From an uncultured Gammaproteobacteria bacterium (lineage in GTDB: Bacteria; Patescibacteriota; Microgenomatia; UBA10105; UBA927), in the NCBI GenBank assembly GCA_964621305.1, contig CAZUOM010000002.1, forward strand, positions 73,733-137,732: a stretch of DNA of 64,000 nucleotides. Direction: 5' to 3'. Made by a program: the position numbers and the translations under genes. The first letter of the stretch is position 1. The number at the start of each line of letters is the position of its first letter. Below the pieces are notes generated by a model. The model was not told the DNA's origin, did not search any database, and was given only the letters and a program-made list of their open reading frames with translations. Below are positions 13,390 through 59,274 of this stretch, piece by piece.

Positions 13390-13896
13390 CTATTTTTTTA
13401 TTAGCTCCTCAAATTTTTTTGCAACTTTGTTATTTGAATCTAAAGCAATGGCCTGATTTAGCAGCCTTTTTGTTTCCTCGGTTTTTCCTAATTGGTAGGC
13501 GAGAGAGGCCAAAGTTATATACGCGTCGCGGTAGTCGGGGTGGGCGAGTGCAACAGATTGCCAGAATTGGTAGGCTTGCGCAAGCGTCTCTGAGGCGTTT
13601 TTCCATTGGTTTAGTAAATCCTCGGTGCTGGCTCCAAGGATAGCCTCTTTTTTGGCTGTATTTCGCAGTCCCTCCTGCCAAAGCTCCTGCGCAAGTAGCC
13701 TGTGTCTCGTTGTCGAAAAAGGTTCTTGCAGCGCAGCCTCAAGTTTGCTCCAGTAGCTTGGCGCGCGATAGGTTCGCGCAAAGACATTGACCGCAAACAG
13801 AGCCGTCAGGCCGGCCCACAAAATCGAAGAAATTGACGATGCAATCAAACTTGCGGTAAATTTTCGGCTAAAGCGCGGGAATTCTAGCTTTAACAT
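13390..13896 (-). CDS. tetratricopeptide-repeat protein with N-terminal TM anchor
   Basis: 168 aa, N-terminal hydrophobic helix, TPR-like A/L/Y periodicity (AYQFWQSVALAHPDYRDAYITLASLAYQLGK). Confidence 0.6.
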   Translation of the reverse strand: MLKLEFPRFSRKFTASLIASSISSILWAGLTALFAVNVFARTYRAPSYWSKLEAALQEPFSTTRHRLLAQELWQEGLRNTAKKEAILGASTEDLLNQWKNASETLAQAYQFWQSVALAHPDYRDAYITLASLAYQLGKTEETKRLLNQAIALDSNNKVAKKFEELIKK

Positions 13897-13918
13897 AGGA
13901 TTATGCTATAGTGTAGGC

Positions 13919-14650
13919 ATGAACAGGAAGAAAACGCAACAGGTTATTGAGCTTCTTAAGAAAGAATATCCCAACGCAAAGATAGTCCTCAAGTTTAGTA
14001 ACCCGTGGGAACTTTTGGTAGCGGTGGTTTTATCAGCCCAATGCACAGACGCGGTAGTCAATAGGGTGACAGAGAAGCTTTTTGCCAAATACAAAACCCT
14101 TGATGGCTATCTAAAGGCAGACATAAAAACCTTCGAACAGGAGATAAGATCCACAGGCTTTTACCACAACAAAGCGAAAAATATTTTGGCCGCGGCAAAA
14201 CTCGTCAAGGAAAAATTTGGTGGCGAGGTGCCAAGCACGATGAGCGAGCTTTTGACGCTTCCCGGTGTGGCGAGAAAAACAGCAAACATCATTTTGGGCA
14301 ACGCGTTTAACATTATAGAGGGCATCGCTGTCGATACCCACGTGTCGCGCCTGAGCCAGCGCTTGCGGCTGGTTAATGTAGACACAATCGGCGGGAAGAA
14401 AGTTATTTTTTTCAAAAGGGGTCCCCTTGCAGCTTTGCAAGGGGACCCCTTGAAGAGAGAGATCGTAGATTATAAAAAGGACGCCGACCCGGTCAAAATA
14501 GAACGCGAGCTGATGGCGGTCGTGCCCAAACCAGATTGGTTCAAGCTCACGTATTTGTTGATCGATCACGGCCGGGCAATCTGCAAAGCCCAAAATCCCA
14601 ACTGCAGCGCCTGTGTCCTTAATAAACTTTGTCCGGCGTCACGGCTTTAA
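13919..14650 (+). CDS. nth: endonuclease III (Nth) carrying an in-frame ~36-aa insertion encoded by a palindromic element
   Basis: Start chosen at MNRKK (13919). LSAQCTD, LPGVARKTANIIL, VDTHVSRLSQRL and a C-terminal CKAQNPNCSACVLNKLCP 4Fe-4S loop. The insertion lies between the HhH-GPD core and the FeS loop and contains a 16-bp perfect inverted repeat. Confidence 0.85.
   Translation: MNRKKTQQVIELLKKEYPNAKIVLKFSNPWELLVAVVLSAQCTDAVVNRVTEKLFAKYKTLDGYLKADIKTFEQEIRSTGFYHNKAKNILAAAKLVKEKFGGEVPSTMSELLTLPGVARKTANIILGNAFNIIEGIAVDTHVSRLSQRLRLVNVDTIGGKKVIFFKRGPLAALQGDPLKREIVDYKKDADPVKIERELMAVVPKPDWFKLTYLLIDHGRAICKAQNPNCSACVLNKLCPASRL
14415..14454. repeat. palindromic in-frame element AAGGGGTCCCCTTGCA-gctt-TGCAAGGGGACCCCTT
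   Basis: Perfect 16-bp inverted repeat with a 4-nt loop inside the nth coding sequence. A near-identical copy lies in trpS at 60308-60350. Confidence 0.9.
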
Positions 14651-14653
14651 TCT

Positions 14654-14926
14654 ATGAAGATCGTTTATACTAAACACGCAGCAAAGAAGTTTAAAGATCT
14701 TAAGCGTCTGGGCTTATTTGTTTCTCGCTTACTTGTTAAGAGTATAATCGAGCATCCCCTTCACCTGGACGAAATGACGGGCTTTCCCAAAAAAATTGCC
14801 AATGGAGTACTCGATCAAACCCATGTTCTTCGCGTTGTGTACAGGCAGGAAGGTGATATAATTATGGTGATTACATTTTACCAACAAAGAAAGGCAGGTA
14901 CACGTCATGAGAATTCGTTACGATAA
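14654..14926 (+). CDS. DUF4258-like toxin-type small protein
   Basis: 90 aa, immediately followed by and overlapping a DUF2283-type gene. The family assignment is from memory. Confidence 0.45.
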   Translation: MKIVYTKHAAKKFKDLKRLGLFVSRLLVKSIIEHPLHLDEMTGFPKKIANGVLDQTHVLRVVYRQEGDIIMVITFYQQRKAGTRHENSLR

Positions 14927-15122
14927 AGAAGATGATGCGCTGATGATCTGGTTTTCGCGGGAAGCCGTGGATTTTGCCGAGCAAAAAAAGGACGTCATTG
15001 CGCACTTTTCCAAAAAGAATAAGTTGGCACTTCTGGAGATTTTAGAAGCATCGAAGTTTCTTAAAGAAGCCTCCGATGTCTTTCCTCCAAATATCAAGCA
15101 GCGTGTTTTTGCAGGCGCATAA
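14907..15122 (+). CDS. DUF2283-family small protein (putative antitoxin partner)
   Basis: MRIRYDKEDDALMIWF matches the M.I.YD.E.DALYI signature of DUF2283. Confidence 0.55.
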   Translation: MRIRYDKEDDALMIWFSREAVDFAEQKKDVIAHFSKKNKLALLEILEASKFLKEASDVFPPNIKQRVFAGA

Positions 15123-15152
15123 TATTTTAGTAGCAGATAAAGACGACTAGGT

Positions 15153-15977
15153 ATGAAAGTCGCTCTAGACATCGGCGGAACAAATTTACGCGCTGGTCTT
15201 TTTTCGGATGATCAGAGGCTGGTTGCAAAACACGTGGAGTCAACCCCCGAGAATTATCGAGATGGCCTACAACGCATCTGTTCTTTAACTAACGAGTTTC
15301 ATACAAAAGGGAACATCGAGGGGGTTGCGGTGGCTATTGCAGGCGTGCTTGATCGGCAGAAGGGGAAAATGTTAGTCAATCCAAATCTTATGGGCTGGAA
15401 CAATGTCTCCATTGGTCCAGACATCGCCAAGAAGACTGGCGTGAGAGTCGTTTTGGAAAACGATGCAGTTGCAGCAGGACTAGGGGAGGCAAACTTTGGC
15501 GCAGGGAAAGGCAAGCGGATCGTAGCGTTTCTCACCATAAGTACCGGGATCGGCGGGGCACGGATTGTCGACGGGAAGACCGATGAAAACACCTGGGGTT
15601 TTGAACCTGGGCATCAAGTCATCAGTGTTGAAGAGATAACAGCAGTTGATGGACGAGTACATGGATGGTTTGAGCGATACGCTTCCGGTTCAGCATTCGA
15701 GGCTCGCTATGGGGTGTCACCGAAGCTCTGCACCGATGGGTCCACATGGAAAGACTTTGCCAAATATTTGTCAGCCGGCATTGTCAACATTATGGTTTTG
15801 TGGTCACCGGACATTGTTGTTCTTGGAGGAGGCGTGAGTAGGAGCGCGGAAAAATTCTTTCCAGCACTTCGGGAATATCTGGATCAGGCAGTTATTTTCC
15901 CCCAAAAACCGCCGGTCGTTGCCGGAACGCTTGGCGATGAAGCTGGGTTATATGGAGGGTTAGTATTACTATCCTAG
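15153..15977 (+). CDS. ROK-family sugar kinase (glucokinase-like)
   Basis: MKVALDIGGTNLRAGLF... and ENDAVAAGLGE are ROK motifs. Confidence 0.8.
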   Translation: MKVALDIGGTNLRAGLFSDDQRLVAKHVESTPENYRDGLQRICSLTNEFHTKGNIEGVAVAIAGVLDRQKGKMLVNPNLMGWNNVSIGPDIAKKTGVRVVLENDAVAAGLGEANFGAGKGKRIVAFLTISTGIGGARIVDGKTDENTWGFEPGHQVISVEEITAVDGRVHGWFERYASGSAFEARYGVSPKLCTDGSTWKDFAKYLSAGIVNIMVLWSPDIVVLGGGVSRSAEKFFPALREYLDQAVIFPQKPPVVAGTLGDEAGLYGGLVLLS

Positions 15978-15982
15978 ACGTA

Positions 15983-16122
15983 TGACTTGGAAAGTTAGAT
16001 CGTTTCAAACATCACGAGGGGATTGTCCTGTTGAGGAATTTTTTAAGAAAAAACAGAGAAAACTCCCCCAAAGGAGCTGAAAGTCGCCATTGACAGGCTG
16101 AAGGAGATGATATAGCATATAT
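15983..16122 (+). pseudogene. degraded HigB/Gp49-like toxin gene (internal deletion plus frameshift)
   Basis: MTWKVRSFQTSRGDCPVEEFFKKKQ then a frameshift at an A-run into ...KTPPKELKVAIDRLKEMI*. Aligns to the N- and C-termini of the intact paralog at 58599-58952 with about 60 aa missing. Confidence 0.65.
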
Positions 16123-16127
16123 GCTAT

Positions 16128-16418
16128 ATGACAAGACGTCACGCTGACTTTGAAGTTTTTCTGAAAAAATCTTTAAAAGATCCAAAACTTAAAGCAGAAT
16201 TTGATAAACTTCAGCCGGAATTTGCCGCAATTGAAGCAATGCTTCGGGCACGGGTAGAAAAAGGATTGCGCCAACAAGACCTTGCCCGAAGAATGAAAAC
16301 CAAGCAGTCAGTGATTTCTCGGGTAGAGGCAGGCAAAACCAGCCCGACCGTCTCATTTCTCCAGCGGCTTGCACAGGCGCTTGATAGCAGGCTTGAAATC
16401 CGATTCATTCCTCAGTAA
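16128..16418 (+). CDS. HTH XRE-family antitoxin (HigA-like)
   Basis: 96 aa, LRQQDLARRMKTKQSVISRVEAGKTSPTVSFLQRLAQAL. Paralogous to 58990-59274 and 18599-18886. Confidence 0.75.
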   Translation: MTRRHADFEVFLKKSLKDPKLKAEFDKLQPEFAAIEAMLRARVEKGLRQQDLARRMKTKQSVISRVEAGKTSPTVSFLQRLAQALDSRLEIRFIPQ

Positions 16419-17181: not shown

Positions 17182-18171
17182 ATGAATACACTGCTTGACG
17201 CCATTGATCAAAAGAAGCGGATCCTCGACGCGCGGCGCCCTTTCCCGGTTGATCTCGTGAAAAACTTAGACCAGTGGTTTACCGTCGAGTTGACCTATAA
17301 CTCTAATGCCATCGAAGGCAATACGCTTTCTCGGGCAGAAACCGCCTTGGTTGTAGAAAAGGGGATCGTCGTAGAAGGCAAGACGCTCGTTGAGCATCTG
17401 GAGGCCGTCAACCATGCTGCTGCGTTTTCCTGGGTGAGGGAGCGGGCGGTGAAACGCACAAGGGTGTCTCTGCAGGATGTTTTGGAACTGCATCGGTTGA
17501 TACTCTCAAAAATCGACGATAGCAATGCCGGCCGTTACCGCACTGTATCGGTGCGTATTGCCGGCTCTCGGGTAGTGCTTCCCAATCCTGCCAAAATTTC
17601 CACGCTCATGGGTGATTTTTCCCTGTGGCTGGGCAAGGCAGCCGGCCACCCGGCCACCGTTGCAAGCCAAGCTCACCTCAAGCTCGTTACCATCCATCCG
17701 TTTGTCGACGGCAACGGGAGAACGGCGCGTCTCCTCATGAATCTTCTTCTTCTGGCGTCCGGCTATCCGCCGGCCATTATTAGAACCCAAGACCGGAGGC
17801 GCTACATTACCAGCATTGAAGCGGCCCAACTGGGGGGTGAGGTCGCCGAGTATTATTCCCTCATGTATGAGTCGGTTGATCGGTCGCTCTCCACCTATCT
17901 GGAAGCTTTAGATGAAAAAAGCGACAGGATAAAACTTGAAAGCAAGCCGTTTTTGACCATCGGGCAAGTAGCTAAGCTCACTGGCGAAACCGTTCCCACA
18001 ATCCGATTTTGGACCACGCAAGGGCTTCTCAGCGCTACCGGCCGCTCTGCCGGCGGTTATCAGCTCTACGGGCGCGATGTCGTTGGTCTGGCACAAAAAA
18101 TTCGCACGCTGCAGAGATCAAAACGTTTATTGCTGTCTGAAATTAAGAGCGAGCTTGCCAGAAGTATGTAA
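17182..18171 (+). CDS. Fic-family protein with C-terminal MerR-like HTH
   Basis: HPFVDGNGRTARLLMNLLL is the Fic motif. C-terminal LTIGQVAKLTGETVPTIRFWTTQGLL is a MerR-type HTH. Confidence 0.8.
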   Translation: MNTLLDAIDQKKRILDARRPFPVDLVKNLDQWFTVELTYNSNAIEGNTLSRAETALVVEKGIVVEGKTLVEHLEAVNHAAAFSWVRERAVKRTRVSLQDVLELHRLILSKIDDSNAGRYRTVSVRIAGSRVVLPNPAKISTLMGDFSLWLGKAAGHPATVASQAHLKLVTIHPFVDGNGRTARLLMNLLLLASGYPPAIIRTQDRRRYITSIEAAQLGGEVAEYYSLMYESVDRSLSTYLEALDEKSDRIKLESKPFLTIGQVAKLTGETVPTIRFWTTQGLLSATGRSAGGYQLYGRDVVGLAQKIRTLQRSKRLLLSEIKSELARSM

Positions 18172-18598: not shown

Positions 18599-18886
18599 TT
18601 ATTTTAACGAAAAGCGAATATCCAGCGTGGCATTGAGGGCTTTTGCGAAGCGTTTTAAGAGGGAAACTGTAGGTGTCGATGCCATCGACTCAATTCTGGA
18701 CACCACAGGCTGCTTTGTGTCCATTTTTTTGGCTAGCTGCGCCTGGGTCATCTTGCGGGCCAGTCGAGCTCCAATCAGAGCGCGTGTGAGCTGATAGTCA
18801 GGTTCAATCCGTTCGGCCTCACGCCGAAATGCCGGATCTTTCATCCGCTTTTTTTCGGATCGCCGCCAGTTTGTATATTTTTTCAT
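18599..18886 (-). CDS. HTH XRE-family antitoxin (HigA-like)
   Basis: Start taken at MKKYTNWRRSEKKRMKDPAFRREAE (AGGAG 8 nt upstream). LTRALIGARLARKMTQAQLAKKMDTKQPVVSRIE. The longer N-terminal extension in the ORF track is rejected. Confidence 0.75.
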   Translation of the reverse strand: MKKYTNWRRSEKKRMKDPAFRREAERIEPDYQLTRALIGARLARKMTQAQLAKKMDTKQPVVSRIESMASTPTVSLLKRFAKALNATLDIRFSLK

Positions 18887-18972
18887 ATGCGTTTCTCCTT
18901 TAGCATATTTGCTCGATGCACTGCCGTGTCTATGTCTTGTTTTGGCGTTTTTTGGAACTGTTTTCCTTTCAT
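18883..18972 (-). pseudogene. 5'-truncated HigB/Gp49-like toxin remnant (last ~28 aa only)
   Basis: MKGKQFQKTPKQDIDTAVHRANMLKEKRI* aligns to the C-terminus (KKTQKTPTKEIATALARLRDYEQKER) of the intact paralog. Its stop overlaps the antitoxin start (ATGA). Confidence 0.55.
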
Positions 18973-19077
18973 AATTTATAACAAAAAAGTTATAAAATGT
19001 CAAGAGTTTCTTCTCCTTTAGCATCACGAGCGTATTACTTGTTGCAGCCAGTAAGGTCAATGTGCTATGCTCCAAAA

Positions 19078-57482: not shown

Positions 57483-57866
57483 CTAACGTTTGTGGGAGTG
57501 GGATTTGAGCCAAGAGGCAATGGTGTCGAGAGAAAAATTCTTTACATCGACGGATACCATAAACGGGACAACCTCTTTTTTTGATCCACGCAGGGTATAT
57601 CCATTGAGGAAAAGAAACCGTTTGGTTGAGTAATATGCGGTCCGCTTATTCCCATCATCAAAGGGATGATTTTTTACTAACGAGTGGAGAAGTGCAGCCG
57701 CTTTTTGCCAAATCGTCGGGTACAACTCTTGACCGCCGAAGGTAACTTTTGGTCGTTCAACTGCAGAGTGGAGAAGTGTAAAGTCGTGAATATCACCTCT
57801 GCCGCCACCTACCGCAATCATACGCTGATGGATTGCGTATACATCCTCAAGCGTCAAGTACTTCAT
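57483..57866 (-). CDS. doc: Doc (death-on-curing) Fic-family toxin
   Basis: HPFDDGNKRTAY is the Doc variant of the Fic motif. 127 aa. Confidence 0.8.
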   Translation of the reverse strand: MKYLTLEDVYAIHQRMIAVGGGRGDIHDFTLLHSAVERPKVTFGGQELYPTIWQKAAALLHSLVKNHPFDDGNKRTAYYSTKRFLFLNGYTLRGSKKEVVPFMVSVDVKNFSLDTIASWLKSHSHKR

Positions 57867-58108
57867 ACCGCAGCCAGCGCTTTAATAATGTCGGCGTCTT
57901 CTTTGACCACTTGATCTAGCCACGCTTTAAACTCCGGTGTCAGCGTGGGGCTGGCGTCTACTTTGTCTTTCCGCACATAGACAGCAGGAATATCAGCATT
58001 TGCTTCTACAAGGACTTTATCGCCAGCCTTGAATTTTGCTTTTTGCGTAAATGCTTTTGGTAGCGTGATGGCAAGCGAATTGCCTACCTGAAAAACAGTT
58101 TGTAACAT
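57863..58108 (-). CDS. AbrB/MazE/Phd-type antitoxin of Doc
   Basis: MLQTVFQVGNSLAITLPKAF is the looped-hinge-helix motif. Overlaps the doc start. Confidence 0.7.
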   Translation of the reverse strand: MLQTVFQVGNSLAITLPKAFTQKAKFKAGDKVLVEANADIPAVYVRKDKVDASPTLTPEFKAWLDQVVKEDADIIKALAAV

Positions 58109-58598: not shown

Positions 58599-58952
58599 AT
58601 GAATGAAACGTGGCGTGTGACGTATTATGTTACTGCCGGCGGAAACATTCCCGTGAGGGATTTTTTAAATGCGGCGGCGCCAACGCTAAAAGTCAAAGCC
58701 TTGCGACTCTTTTTGCATTTGAGCGAATATGGATTGCAAGGAGTTATTCCGCACCTGAAGAAACTAACCGGCACGCCGTTGTGGGAGCTACGGATTATGG
58801 GCGGGGAGAGCGTGAGAATTCTGTTTGTGACGCAGGTGGGAAAGAAAATTATTTTGTTGCATGGGTTTTATAAGAAGACGCAAAAGACGCCAACTAAGGA
58901 GATTGCCACGGCTCTGGCTCGACTGCGGGACTACGAACAAAAAGAACGATAG
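58599..58952 (+). CDS. higB: HigB/Gp49-like (DUF891) RelE-superfamily toxin, intact
   Basis: MNETWRVTYYVTAGGNIPVRDFL...LWELRIMGGESVRILFVTQVGKKIILLHGFYKKTQKTPTKEIATALARLRDY. Confidence 0.75.
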   Translation: MNETWRVTYYVTAGGNIPVRDFLNAAAPTLKVKALRLFLHLSEYGLQGVIPHLKKLTGTPLWELRIMGGESVRILFVTQVGKKIILLHGFYKKTQKTPTKEIATALARLRDYEQKER

Positions 58953-58989
58953 TTGACAGAATATATCTTTTGAGATATATTCTTCTCAT

Positions 58990-59274
58990 ATGGCACGGAG
59001 AGTATATACACTAGAAGATCATTTGAGAGAATCCTTAAAAGACCCTGAGTTTCGCAAGGCATGGGAAGCCAGTGAAGTAGAGTACCAACTGTCCCGGCAG
59101 ATTATCGCCCAGCGTTTGCGAAGAAAAATGACGCAGGGGCAGCTTGCACAAAAAGCGCAGACGACACAAGCAGTTATTTCTCGCATAGAGCGAATGACTG
59201 AAAACGTGTCAGTAGAGCTCCTCAAGAGGATTGCTGGAGCATTTGGATCACGATTAAAAGTCGGATTTGAATAA
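58990..59274 (+). CDS. higA: HTH XRE-family antitoxin (HigA-like)
   Basis: LSRQIIAQRLRRKMTQGQLAQKAQTTQAVISRIE. Confidence 0.75.
   Translation: MARRVYTLEDHLRESLKDPEFRKAWEASEVEYQLSRQIIAQRLRRKMTQGQLAQKAQTTQAVISRIERMTENVSVELLKRIAGAFGSRLKVGFE

What the first reader, a model, noticed from the sequence alone, without database searches (positions are those of the whole stretch)
15983..16418. HigB-like toxin reduced to a frameshifted N/C-terminal mini-gene beside an intact HigA antitoxin
MTWKVRSFQTSRGDCPVEEFFKKKQ then a frameshift at an A-run into KTPPKELKVAIDRLKEMI*. This corresponds to the first ~25 and last ~22 residues of the intact paralog at 58599-58952 (MNETWRVTYYV...KKTQKTPTKEIATALARLRDY), with about 60 aa deleted. 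The downstream XRE antitoxin is intact. This looks like toxin decay that leaves an orphan antitoxin.
Basis: seen in the sequence. Interest (0 to 1): 0.5.

Follow-up and report, generated by a model that had tools for sequence, protein, structure and literature searches.

The report
Decayed HigB-like toxin, surviving antitoxin
A small toxin gene of a toxin-antitoxin pair has been wrecked by an internal deletion plus a one-base frameshift, while its partner antitoxin gene is intact; this is an ordinary kind of gene decay, and the stretch of dead toxin gene that survives appears to carry the antitoxin's own promoter and operator.

Summary
Window 15982-16115 is a 134-nt wreck of a 109-codon Gp49/HigB-like toxin gene (Pfam PF05973). 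It keeps codons 1-20 and 86-109, lacks 195 nt (65 codons), and has lost one A in an A-run (16048-16053). The frame now stops at 16080. The XRE antitoxin (16128-16418) is intact.

Orthologous loci confirm this. Two carry intact 109-aa toxins (L003, L005). L004 lost the toxin independently, through an ATG>ACG change at the start codon. Two further assemblies are identical to the window, so this is not a sequencing error.

Among 112 related Microgenomates loci, 20 have a degraded or missing toxin beside an intact antitoxin. All 20 keep the last ~45 nt of the toxin gene. That stretch reads TTGACA-17 nt-TAGCAT plus an almost invariant 18-bp palindrome ending on the antitoxin's ATG. I read it as an antitoxin-specific, probably leaderless, autoregulated promoter. 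Supporting evidence comes from synonymous-codon bias and from covariation between antitoxin residue 62 and the palindrome.

The window also holds a second decayed module (18599-18972, minus strand) and one intact pair (58599-59274).

Orphan antitoxins from degraded toxin-antitoxin modules are well documented, so interest is low to moderate. The promoter architecture is the only new element, and it is inferred, not demonstrated.

The parts
15982..16041 (+). Toxin remnant, 5' piece: codons 1-20 (MTWKVRSFQTSRGDCPVEEF) of a 109-codon Gp49/HigB-like toxin.
   Evidence: tblastn with the L003 toxin: residues 1-24 at 71% identity, E 9e-8. Two-piece alignment.
16042..16115 (+). Toxin remnant, 3' piece: codons 86-109 plus the TAG stop (FKKK(T)EKTPPKELKVAIDRLKEMI*). 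It is out of frame with the 5' piece.
   Evidence: tblastn with the L003 toxin: residues 86-109 at 67% identity, E 9e-6. Pfam Gp49 profile positions 69-90. Translation.
16048..16053 (+). A6 run where the frame is lost. L005 has A7 here (AAGAAAAAAACAG).
   Evidence: DNA alignment and length count, 134 vs 330 nt = 195 + 1.
15982..16080 (+). The open frame as it now stands: 32 codons then TGA. Probably a meaningless peptide.
   Evidence: ORF list and translation.
16090..16118 (+). Promoter-like site TTGACA-17 nt-TAGCAT. The -35 box lies in toxin codons I-D-R, and the -10 box begins with the toxin's TAG stop.
   Evidence: Promoter scan, 10 of 12 matches. At this fixed offset TTGACA is present in 84 of 92 intact and 19 of 20 decayed loci. 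Asp codon GAC 84: GAT 0, against 111:260 elsewhere.
16111..16128 (+). Perfect 18-bp palindrome TATAGCATATATGCTATA (20 bp if extended to 16110-16129). It is the proposed antitoxin operator; its last base is the A of the antitoxin ATG.
   Evidence: Repeat finder. Single occurrence in the window. At least 90% identity at every position across 112 loci. Covaries with antitoxin residue 62.
16128..16418 (+). Intact XRE/HTH_3 antitoxin (HigA-like), 96 aa.
   Evidence: Pfam HTH_3, 51 bits. 259 homologues found. dN/dS 0.06 against L003.

Best explanation
This is a dead copy of a reverse-order (toxin first) type II toxin-antitoxin module of the Gp49/HigB-XRE kind, in a Microgenomates (Patescibacteria) genome.

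Shown:
- The toxin gene lost codons 21-85 (195 nt) and one A from an A-run. Only a 32-codon nonsense frame remains, so no RelE-fold nuclease can be made.
- The antitoxin gene is whole.

Inferred:
- The antitoxin does not depend on the toxin gene's upstream signals. It has its own sigma-70-type promoter, with a -35 box (TTGACA) written into the toxin's last codons and a -10 box (TAGCAT) that starts at the toxin's stop codon.
- An 18-bp palindrome covers the -10 box and the transcription start, and it ends on the antitoxin's ATG. The transcript is therefore leaderless or nearly so.
- The antitoxin dimer binds this palindrome and represses its own synthesis.
- This autonomy is why deletions can remove the toxin while the antitoxin stays expressed, and why the 3' end of the toxin gene always survives.

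Timing and role:
- The decay in this lineage looks recent relative to the split from the nearest relative.
- What the antitoxin does now (relic autorepressor, or immunity against incoming toxins) is open.
For: Toxin decay:
- establish the lesions.
- Intact orthologues exist in L003 and L005, and L005 is syntenic.
- The deletion removes 15 of the 29 invariant toxin residues.
- The window sequence is reproduced exactly in two other assemblies.

Promoter:
- The scan finds TTGACA-17-TAGCAT at 16090-16118. The intact paralog has an analogous TTGACA-17-TATATT with an 11-nt-arm inverted repeat directly before its antitoxin ATG.
- Across 112 unique loci, the -35 box and the palindrome are the best-conserved positions in the region (at least 90% identity), better than the flanking coding sequence.
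- At the -35 position the Asp codon is GAC in 84 loci and GAT in none, against 111:260 elsewhere. The preceding codon is CTT, ATT or GTT, so the amino acid varies while TT stays fixed. The Arg codon is always AGR and never CGN.
- In the 20 loci with a decayed or absent toxin, 19 keep TTGACA. In the toxin-less loci the surviving toxin sequence starts just upstream of the -35 box, by inspection of the listed sequences.
- The palindrome ends 1 nt into the ATG in 70 of 112 loci and 3 nt in 14. Where it lies further upstream, a GGAGG leader follows it.

Operator:
- All 5 loci with V62A in the recognition helix (TKQSAISR) have the symmetric G5A/C14T palindrome. All 106 other loci have V62. The variant loci are not each other's closest relatives.

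Selection:
- Antitoxin dN/dS is 0.06 against L003.
- The retained toxin parts give dN/dS 0.10, which suggests recent loss.
- The toxin-less pair L088/L093 shares the same sequence upstream of the promoter and gives dN/dS 0.09.

Precedent: antitoxin-only promoters inside the toxin ORF are known for mqsRA (PMC6918082).
Against: - There is no transcript data. The promoter, the start site and the leaderless reading are consensus-based inferences, and promoter rules for Patescibacteria have not been established experimentally.
- Conservation of TTGACA overlaps conserved residues (L/I-D-R). The codon and contingency tests ignore phylogenetic non-independence.
- The covariation rests on 5 loci (about 4 lineages), and one locus (L058) has the variant palindrome with V62.
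- In the close relative L004, the antitoxin shows 5 nonsynonymous changes to 1 synonymous change, and its -10 box is damaged. Antitoxins can therefore simply follow the toxin into decay.
- The 5' piece of the toxin has no known reason to be retained.
Confidence: 0.85

Rival explanations
1. Neutral relic. The whole module is dying, and the antitoxin is intact only because too little time has passed. It has no remaining function.
For: - The retained toxin codons still show dN/dS 0.10 against L003, so the loss is recent.
- L004 shows the next stage: toxin start lost, 5 nonsynonymous to 1 synonymous changes in the antitoxin including the near-invariant P73 and F32, and a -10 box reading TAGCAC.
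- The three assemblies are identical, so there is no information on selection since the deletion.
Against: - The toxin-less pair L088/L093 has diverged (dS 0.21) with dN/dS 0.09, so antitoxins without a detectable toxin can be kept by selection in this family.
- The window's antitoxin keeps all invariant residues and a perfect promoter and operator.
- 19 of the 20 decayed loci keep the promoter.
Confidence: 0.35
2. Retained immunity (anti-addiction). The orphan antitoxin is kept to neutralise homologous toxins, either arriving on mobile elements or encoded elsewhere in the genome.
For: - The N-terminal half is conserved in the window's antitoxin. In solved HigBA complexes this part binds the toxin (own knowledge).
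- Purifying selection acts on one toxin-less pair.
- The operator is conserved across the family, which would allow cross-regulation.
- The anti-addiction role of orphan antitoxins is a standing proposal (PMC7354431).
Against: - No relatives of the toxin were found in IMG/VR viral contigs.
- The only intact toxin in the window is about 37% identical to the orthologous toxin, and its antitoxin is 33% identical with a different operator.
- Nothing was tested functionally.
Confidence: 0.2
3. Artefact or recoding. The toxin is really intact, and the lesions are assembly or homopolymer errors. Alternatively, a ribosomal -1 slip on the A-run makes a functional 44-aa mini-protein.
For: - The frame change sits in a homopolymer (A6).
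- The repaired frame is open to the original stop codon.
Against: - Three assemblies from different runs agree base for base.
- A missing 195-nt block cannot be a homopolymer error.
- Even the repaired 44-aa product lacks residues 21-85, which include 15 of the 29 invariant positions. It scores below the Pfam cut-off.
Confidence: 0.03

Closest known systems
Gp49-domain HigB / Tad-Ata type II toxin-antitoxin modules (Pfam PF05973 toxin plus XRE-HTH antitoxin). The nearest solved toxin is 6af3_A, annotated as a HigB toxin.
   Same: - Toxin gene first, antitoxin second.
- The orthologous toxin scores 73.8 bits on PF05973 and E 1.9e-7 against 6af3_A.
- The antitoxin is an HTH_3 protein.
- Reverse gene order is the rule for Gp49-domain toxins (PMC5906591).
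   Different: - Here the toxin is a 134-nt wreck.
- The toxin matches no NCBIfam model.
- The subfamily is confined, in what was fetched, to Microgenomates/Patescibacteria metagenome-assembled genomes.
Orphan antitoxins left by degraded type II modules (surveys in Klebsiella, Mycobacterium and Acinetobacter).
   Same: An intact antitoxin lies beside recognisable toxin debris. Published surveys attribute most orphan antitoxins to degraded canonical systems (PMC7354431).
   Different: The lesions can be reconstructed exactly from orthologues, and the retained toxin 3' end has a proposed function as a promoter.
mqsRA of E. coli: antitoxin-specific promoters inside the toxin ORF.
   Same: A reverse-order module in which promoters within the toxin coding sequence uncouple antitoxin transcription from toxin transcription (PMC6918082).
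   Different: - The mqsA promoters are reported as constitutive and not regulated by MqsA.
- Here the predicted promoter is overlapped by a palindrome that covaries with the antitoxin's recognition helix, and the transcript would be leaderless.
- The proteins are unrelated.

Membership tests
Gp49/HigB-like toxin (PF05973, RelE/ParE superfamily) | Match to the family profile above the curated cut-off. | tested here: not met
   - The repaired 44-aa remnant scores 18.4 bits against a cut-off of 23.9, and only profile positions 69-90 match.
- The orthologous intact toxins do pass: L003 at 73.8 bits and the paralog at 58599 at 72.8 bits.
- The remnant therefore derives from a member but is not itself a complete member.
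Gp49/HigB-like toxin (PF05973, RelE/ParE superfamily) | Full-length open frame with the conserved core residues. | tested here: not met
   Residues 21-85 are absent, including 15 of the 29 invariant columns (K31...H84). The frame is broken at 16048-16053.
Gp49/HigB-like toxin (PF05973, RelE/ParE superfamily) | Relative with a solved HigB structure. | tested here: met
   The L003 orthologue against 6af3_A (HigB toxin) gives E 1.9e-7 over residues 5-102. Hits to HigB1 chains (7nbu_Y, 7awk_A) are weak, at E 0.07-0.09.
Gp49/HigB-like toxin (PF05973, RelE/ParE superfamily) | mRNA-cleaving toxicity that is neutralised by the partner antitoxin. | not testable with these tools
   Needs expression assays.
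Reverse-order HigBA/Tad-Ata module | Toxin gene directly upstream of an XRE-HTH antitoxin gene. | tested here: met
   The remnant's stop is at 16113-16115 and the antitoxin ATG at 16128. The 12-nt gap is the same as in most intact relatives. HTH_3 scores 51 bits.
Orphan antitoxin | No intact cognate toxin adjacent, and an intact, conserved antitoxin ORF. | tested here: met
   - tblastn finds only the two toxin fragments at this locus.
- The downstream gene is an FNR-like oxidoreductase.
- The antitoxin keeps all invariant columns.
Orphan antitoxin | Expressed and functional without the toxin. | tested here: inconclusive
   - A promoter and operator are predicted and conserved, but no transcript or binding data exist.
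- Family evidence points both ways: L088/L093 are under purifying selection, while L004 is decaying.

The most novel reading that the evidence does not exclude
In the Gp49/HigB-XRE modules of Microgenomates, the antitoxin is made from a leaderless transcript. Its autoregulated promoter is built into the toxin's last eight codons and stop codon, and its operator is an almost invariant 18-bp palindrome read by residue 62 of the recognition helix.

This design makes the antitoxin autonomous. It explains why about one locus in six has shed the toxin while always keeping those ~45 nt. It also leaves orphan antitoxins, such as the two in this window, as selected immunity or regulatory genes that share one operator code across paralogs.
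Probability: 0.3. Interest if true: 0.45.

Novelty: new member of a known kind. Interest (0 to 1): 0.28.

Why it matters
By itself it matters little. Degraded toxins beside surviving antitoxins are common, and this instance mainly helps correct annotation: a pseudogene plus an orphan HigA-like regulator.

Two points give it some value.

First, the lesions can be reconstructed exactly from orthologues. The same genome window shows three stages of the same module type: one intact, one with N- and C-terminal debris, and one with C-terminal debris only.

Second, the family comparison yields a testable promoter and operator model, including a protein-DNA covariation. It concerns a phylum (Patescibacteria) for which, to my knowledge, almost no promoters or repressor sites have been defined.

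If the model is confirmed, it would provide a ready-made regulated promoter/repressor pair for these uncultivated bacteria. It would also give a mechanistic reason why reverse-order modules lose toxins without losing antitoxins.

Tried and rejected
- MAFFT placed the deletion gap wrongly in the 4-sequence DNA alignment. I replaced it with an explicit two-piece alignment.
- A single 196-nt deletion was considered against a 195-nt deletion plus a 1-nt slip. The single event needs at least 3 extra substitutions at the junction, so two events are more parsimonious by hand comparison. This cannot be proven without a closer intact relative. No clear microhomology is visible at the junction (TTT|TTT).
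- My first codon test selected loci by the presence of TTGACA and was circular. I redid it at a fixed offset without that condition.
The genome-contig scan did not return the source genome.
- The exact palindrome in viral contigs gave 10 hits, none next to a toxin or antitoxin homologue. A toxin-profile scan of viral contigs found no relatives.
- NCBIfam has no model for the orthologous toxin.
- The RNA-hairpin reading of the palindrome is weak. An 8-bp stem forms, but the region folds no better than shuffles (z = -1.36), and in a leaderless transcript it would not be transcribed whole.
- The second remnant (18883-18972) could not be aligned to the paralog by BLASTP. It needed a closer relative, L167, to be recognised.
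- Literature searches found no paper on HigBA-type modules in the Candidate Phyla Radiation.

Full report
**1. The observation**

- An ATG at 15982 opens MTWKVRSFQTSRGDCPVEEFFKKKQRKLPQRS*, with the stop at 16078-16080.
- A second frame from 16050 reads EKTEKTPPKELKVAIDRLKEMI*, with the stop at 16113-16115.
- The two frames meet in the run AAAAAA at 16048-16053.

With one A added, the 44-aa product aligns to both ends of the window's intact paralog (58599-58952). BLASTP gives E 7e-7 and 3e-6. It also touches the last 22 positions of Pfam Gp49 (PF05973), below the cut-off. The paralog itself is a clear Gp49 protein (72.8 bits).

The gene at 16128-16418 is an intact 96-aa HTH_3/XRE protein. It is 33% identical to the paralog's antitoxin.

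**2. Orthologues show exactly what was lost**

A search with the antitoxin found 259 relatives. The named hits are all Microgenomates/Patescibacteria. The loci of the closest relatives are informative.
- L003 (antitoxin 91% identical) and L005 (80%) each carry an intact 109-aa Gp49 toxin 12 nt upstream of the antitoxin. L005 also has the same FNR-like gene downstream.
- Against these toxins, the window keeps codons 1-20 and 86-109. The gene is 134 nt instead of 330 nt, so 195 nt (65 codons) plus 1 nt are missing.
- L005 reads AAGAAAAAAACAG where the window reads AAGAAAAAACAG. The simplest history is an in-frame 195-nt deletion followed or preceded by the loss of one A. A single 196-nt deletion cannot be excluded.
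- The deleted part holds 15 of the 29 invariant residues of the toxin alignment.
- The orthologous toxin matches PDB chain 6af3_A, annotated as a HigB toxin, at E 1.9e-7. 'HigB-like' is therefore fair in the broad sense; the precise family is Gp49-domain HigB/Tad (PMC5906591).

**3. Not an artefact**

Two Logan assemblies from other sequencing runs are 100% identical to the window over 2394 and 1674 nt, including the remnant. A missing 195-nt block is not a homopolymer error in any case.

**4. Decay of the toxin with survival of the antitoxin is recurrent**

- L004 (antitoxin 86% identical, syntenic through the L25 gene) has a full-length open toxin frame whose start codon is ACG. There is no alternative start, and it carries F86S at an invariant position.
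- I fetched 160 further loci. Of 112 unique loci of the main family with enough upstream sequence, 92 have an intact toxin, 11 a truncated, internally deleted or frameshifted one, 2 a lost start codon, and 7 no recognisable toxin.
- L014 and L109 resemble the window, with N-terminal debris plus the extreme 3' end.
- The window contains a second case on the minus strand. A 29-codon ORF (18883-18972, MKGKQFQKTPKQDIDTAVHRANMLKEKRI) sits directly before an intact 95-aa antitoxin (ATG at 18886).
  - This ORF matches the end of the Pfam profile only weakly (E 0.069).
  - It matches the C-terminus of the toxin in relative L167 (...IKKSQKTPRQDVELAQKRALKAKKDLL*), and L167 has the same ATGA stop/start overlap.
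- So two of the three Gp49/XRE modules in this window have lost their toxin.

**5. What the surviving 3' piece is**

A consensus scan finds TTGACA-17 nt-TAGCAT at 16090-18. A perfect palindrome (TATAGCATATATGCTATA, 16111-16128) ends on the A of the antitoxin ATG. The intact paralog has an analogous TTGACA-17-TATATT with an 11-nt-arm inverted repeat immediately before its antitoxin ATG.

Five observations from the family support a promoter.
- Across the 112 loci, the -35 hexamer and the 18-bp palindrome are at least 90% identical at every position. The neighbouring coding positions are much less conserved, and the proteins are only 50-70% identical.
- The constraint is on nucleotides, not amino acids. 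At the fixed offset the Asp codon is GAC in 84 loci and GAT in none (elsewhere 111:260). The codon before it is CTT, ATT or GTT, so it codes L, I or V but always ends in TT. The Arg codon is always AGA or AGG.
- Among the 20 loci with decayed or absent toxins, 19 keep TTGACA and 16 keep TAGCAT. In the toxin-less loci, by inspection of the listed sequences, the surviving toxin sequence begins just upstream of the -35 box.
- The palindrome ends 1 nt into the ATG in 70 loci and 3 nt in 14. Where it lies further upstream, a leader with GGAGG follows. This fits a transcription start at the right edge of the palindrome and a leaderless message in most loci.
- All five loci whose recognition helix reads TKQSAISR or TKQTAISR (V62A) have the symmetric variant with G5A/T and C14T. 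All 106 others have V62. The variant loci are each closer to a non-variant antitoxin than to one another.

I read this as an antitoxin-specific, self-repressed promoter. It is an inference: there are no transcript or binding data, and the statistics ignore shared ancestry. Antitoxin-only promoters inside the toxin ORF have been shown experimentally for mqsRA (PMC6918082).

**6. Timing and fate**

- The antitoxin's dN/dS against L003 is 0.06, at dS of about 1.1.
- The retained toxin codons give 0.10. Most of their divergence therefore accrued under constraint, and the inactivation is recent relative to that split (few sites, and part of them is under promoter constraint).
- The family shows both fates. 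L088 and L093, in which no toxin was detected in the short upstream stretch available (154 and 96 nt), share the same sequence upstream of the promoter and have diverged with dN/dS 0.09. L004's antitoxin has 5 nonsynonymous changes to 1 synonymous change and a damaged -10 box.
- For the window's copy, the three assemblies are identical, so nothing can be said about selection since the deletion.

**7. Could the orphan serve other toxins?**

- The only intact Gp49 toxin in the window is about 37% identical to the orthologous toxin. Its antitoxin is 33% identical and has a different palindrome.
- No relatives of the toxin were found in IMG/VR viral contigs.
- The immunity idea, a standing proposal for orphan antitoxins (PMC7354431), is therefore neither supported nor excluded.

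**8. Context**

In L003, L004 and L005, endonuclease III lies directly in front of the toxin. In the window, three genes (14654-15977: a 90-aa ORF, DUF2283 and a ROK kinase) sit between them and end 4 nt before the toxin ATG. L005 appears to be the outgroup on antitoxin identity (80% against 91% and 86%), so this block looks like an insertion in the window's lineage. Whether it contributed to silencing the toxin is unknown.

**9. Verdict**

The phenomenon is a known kind (PMC7354431), so interest is low to moderate. The added element worth following up is the conserved promoter and operator embedded in the toxin's 3' end.

Noticed in passing
window 18599-19003 (minus strand): A second decayed Gp49/XRE module. 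A 29-codon ORF (18883-18972) is the C-terminal end of a toxin, and it overlaps by ATGA the start (18886) of an intact 95-aa antitoxin. Upstream lies a near-consensus promoter-like site, TTGACA-17-TATAAA (19003-18975), whose spacer holds the inverted repeat TTTATAAC/GTTATAAA.
   Followed up: partly
window 14654-15977: Three genes lie between endonuclease III (13787-14650) and the toxin remnant: a 90-aa ORF with no Pfam hit that overlaps a DUF2283 gene, then a ROK-family kinase. Relatives L003, L004 and L005 have endonuclease III directly before the toxin, so this block looks inserted, and it ends 4 nt from the toxin ATG.
   Followed up: partly
window 58953-58990: The intact paralog pair has its own promoter-like site, TTGACA-17-TATATT (11 of 12 matches), with an 11-nt-arm perfect inverted repeat (58958-58983). 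It lies between the toxin stop and the antitoxin ATG (58990), which again predicts a near-leaderless antitoxin message.
   Followed up: partly
window 17182-18171 and 57483-58108: Other toxin-antitoxin-like genes lie nearby: a Fic domain fused to a MerR HTH (329 aa), and a Doc/Fic protein (57483-57866, minus strand) with a MazE/AbrB-type partner (57863-58108, minus strand). The window is rich in such modules.
   Followed up: no
L008-L165, about 20 nt before the toxin ATG (examples: L114, L140, L054): In many relatives the toxin ATG is preceded at about 6-9 nt by TGCTAnnAT. This looks like an extended -10 element and resembles the right half of the operator (ATGCTAT). The toxin message may also be leaderless and may carry a half-site. 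The window, L003 and L005 lack this element.
   Followed up: no
L003 560-958; L004 3340-3650: The endonuclease III genes upstream of the toxin in these two close relatives are truncated or degraded (132 aa in L003 against 287 aa in the window). No gene is called in L004, where the sequence shows internal deletions.
   Followed up: no
L001 and L002 (window 16817): Both independent Logan contigs end at the same window coordinate (16817), inside the FNR-like gene. This may mark a strain-variable point or an assembly break.
   Followed up: no
L166 1633-1814: A relative (67% identical) of the window's third antitoxin has no toxin gene called in the 180 nt upstream. This may be a further orphan.
   Followed up: no
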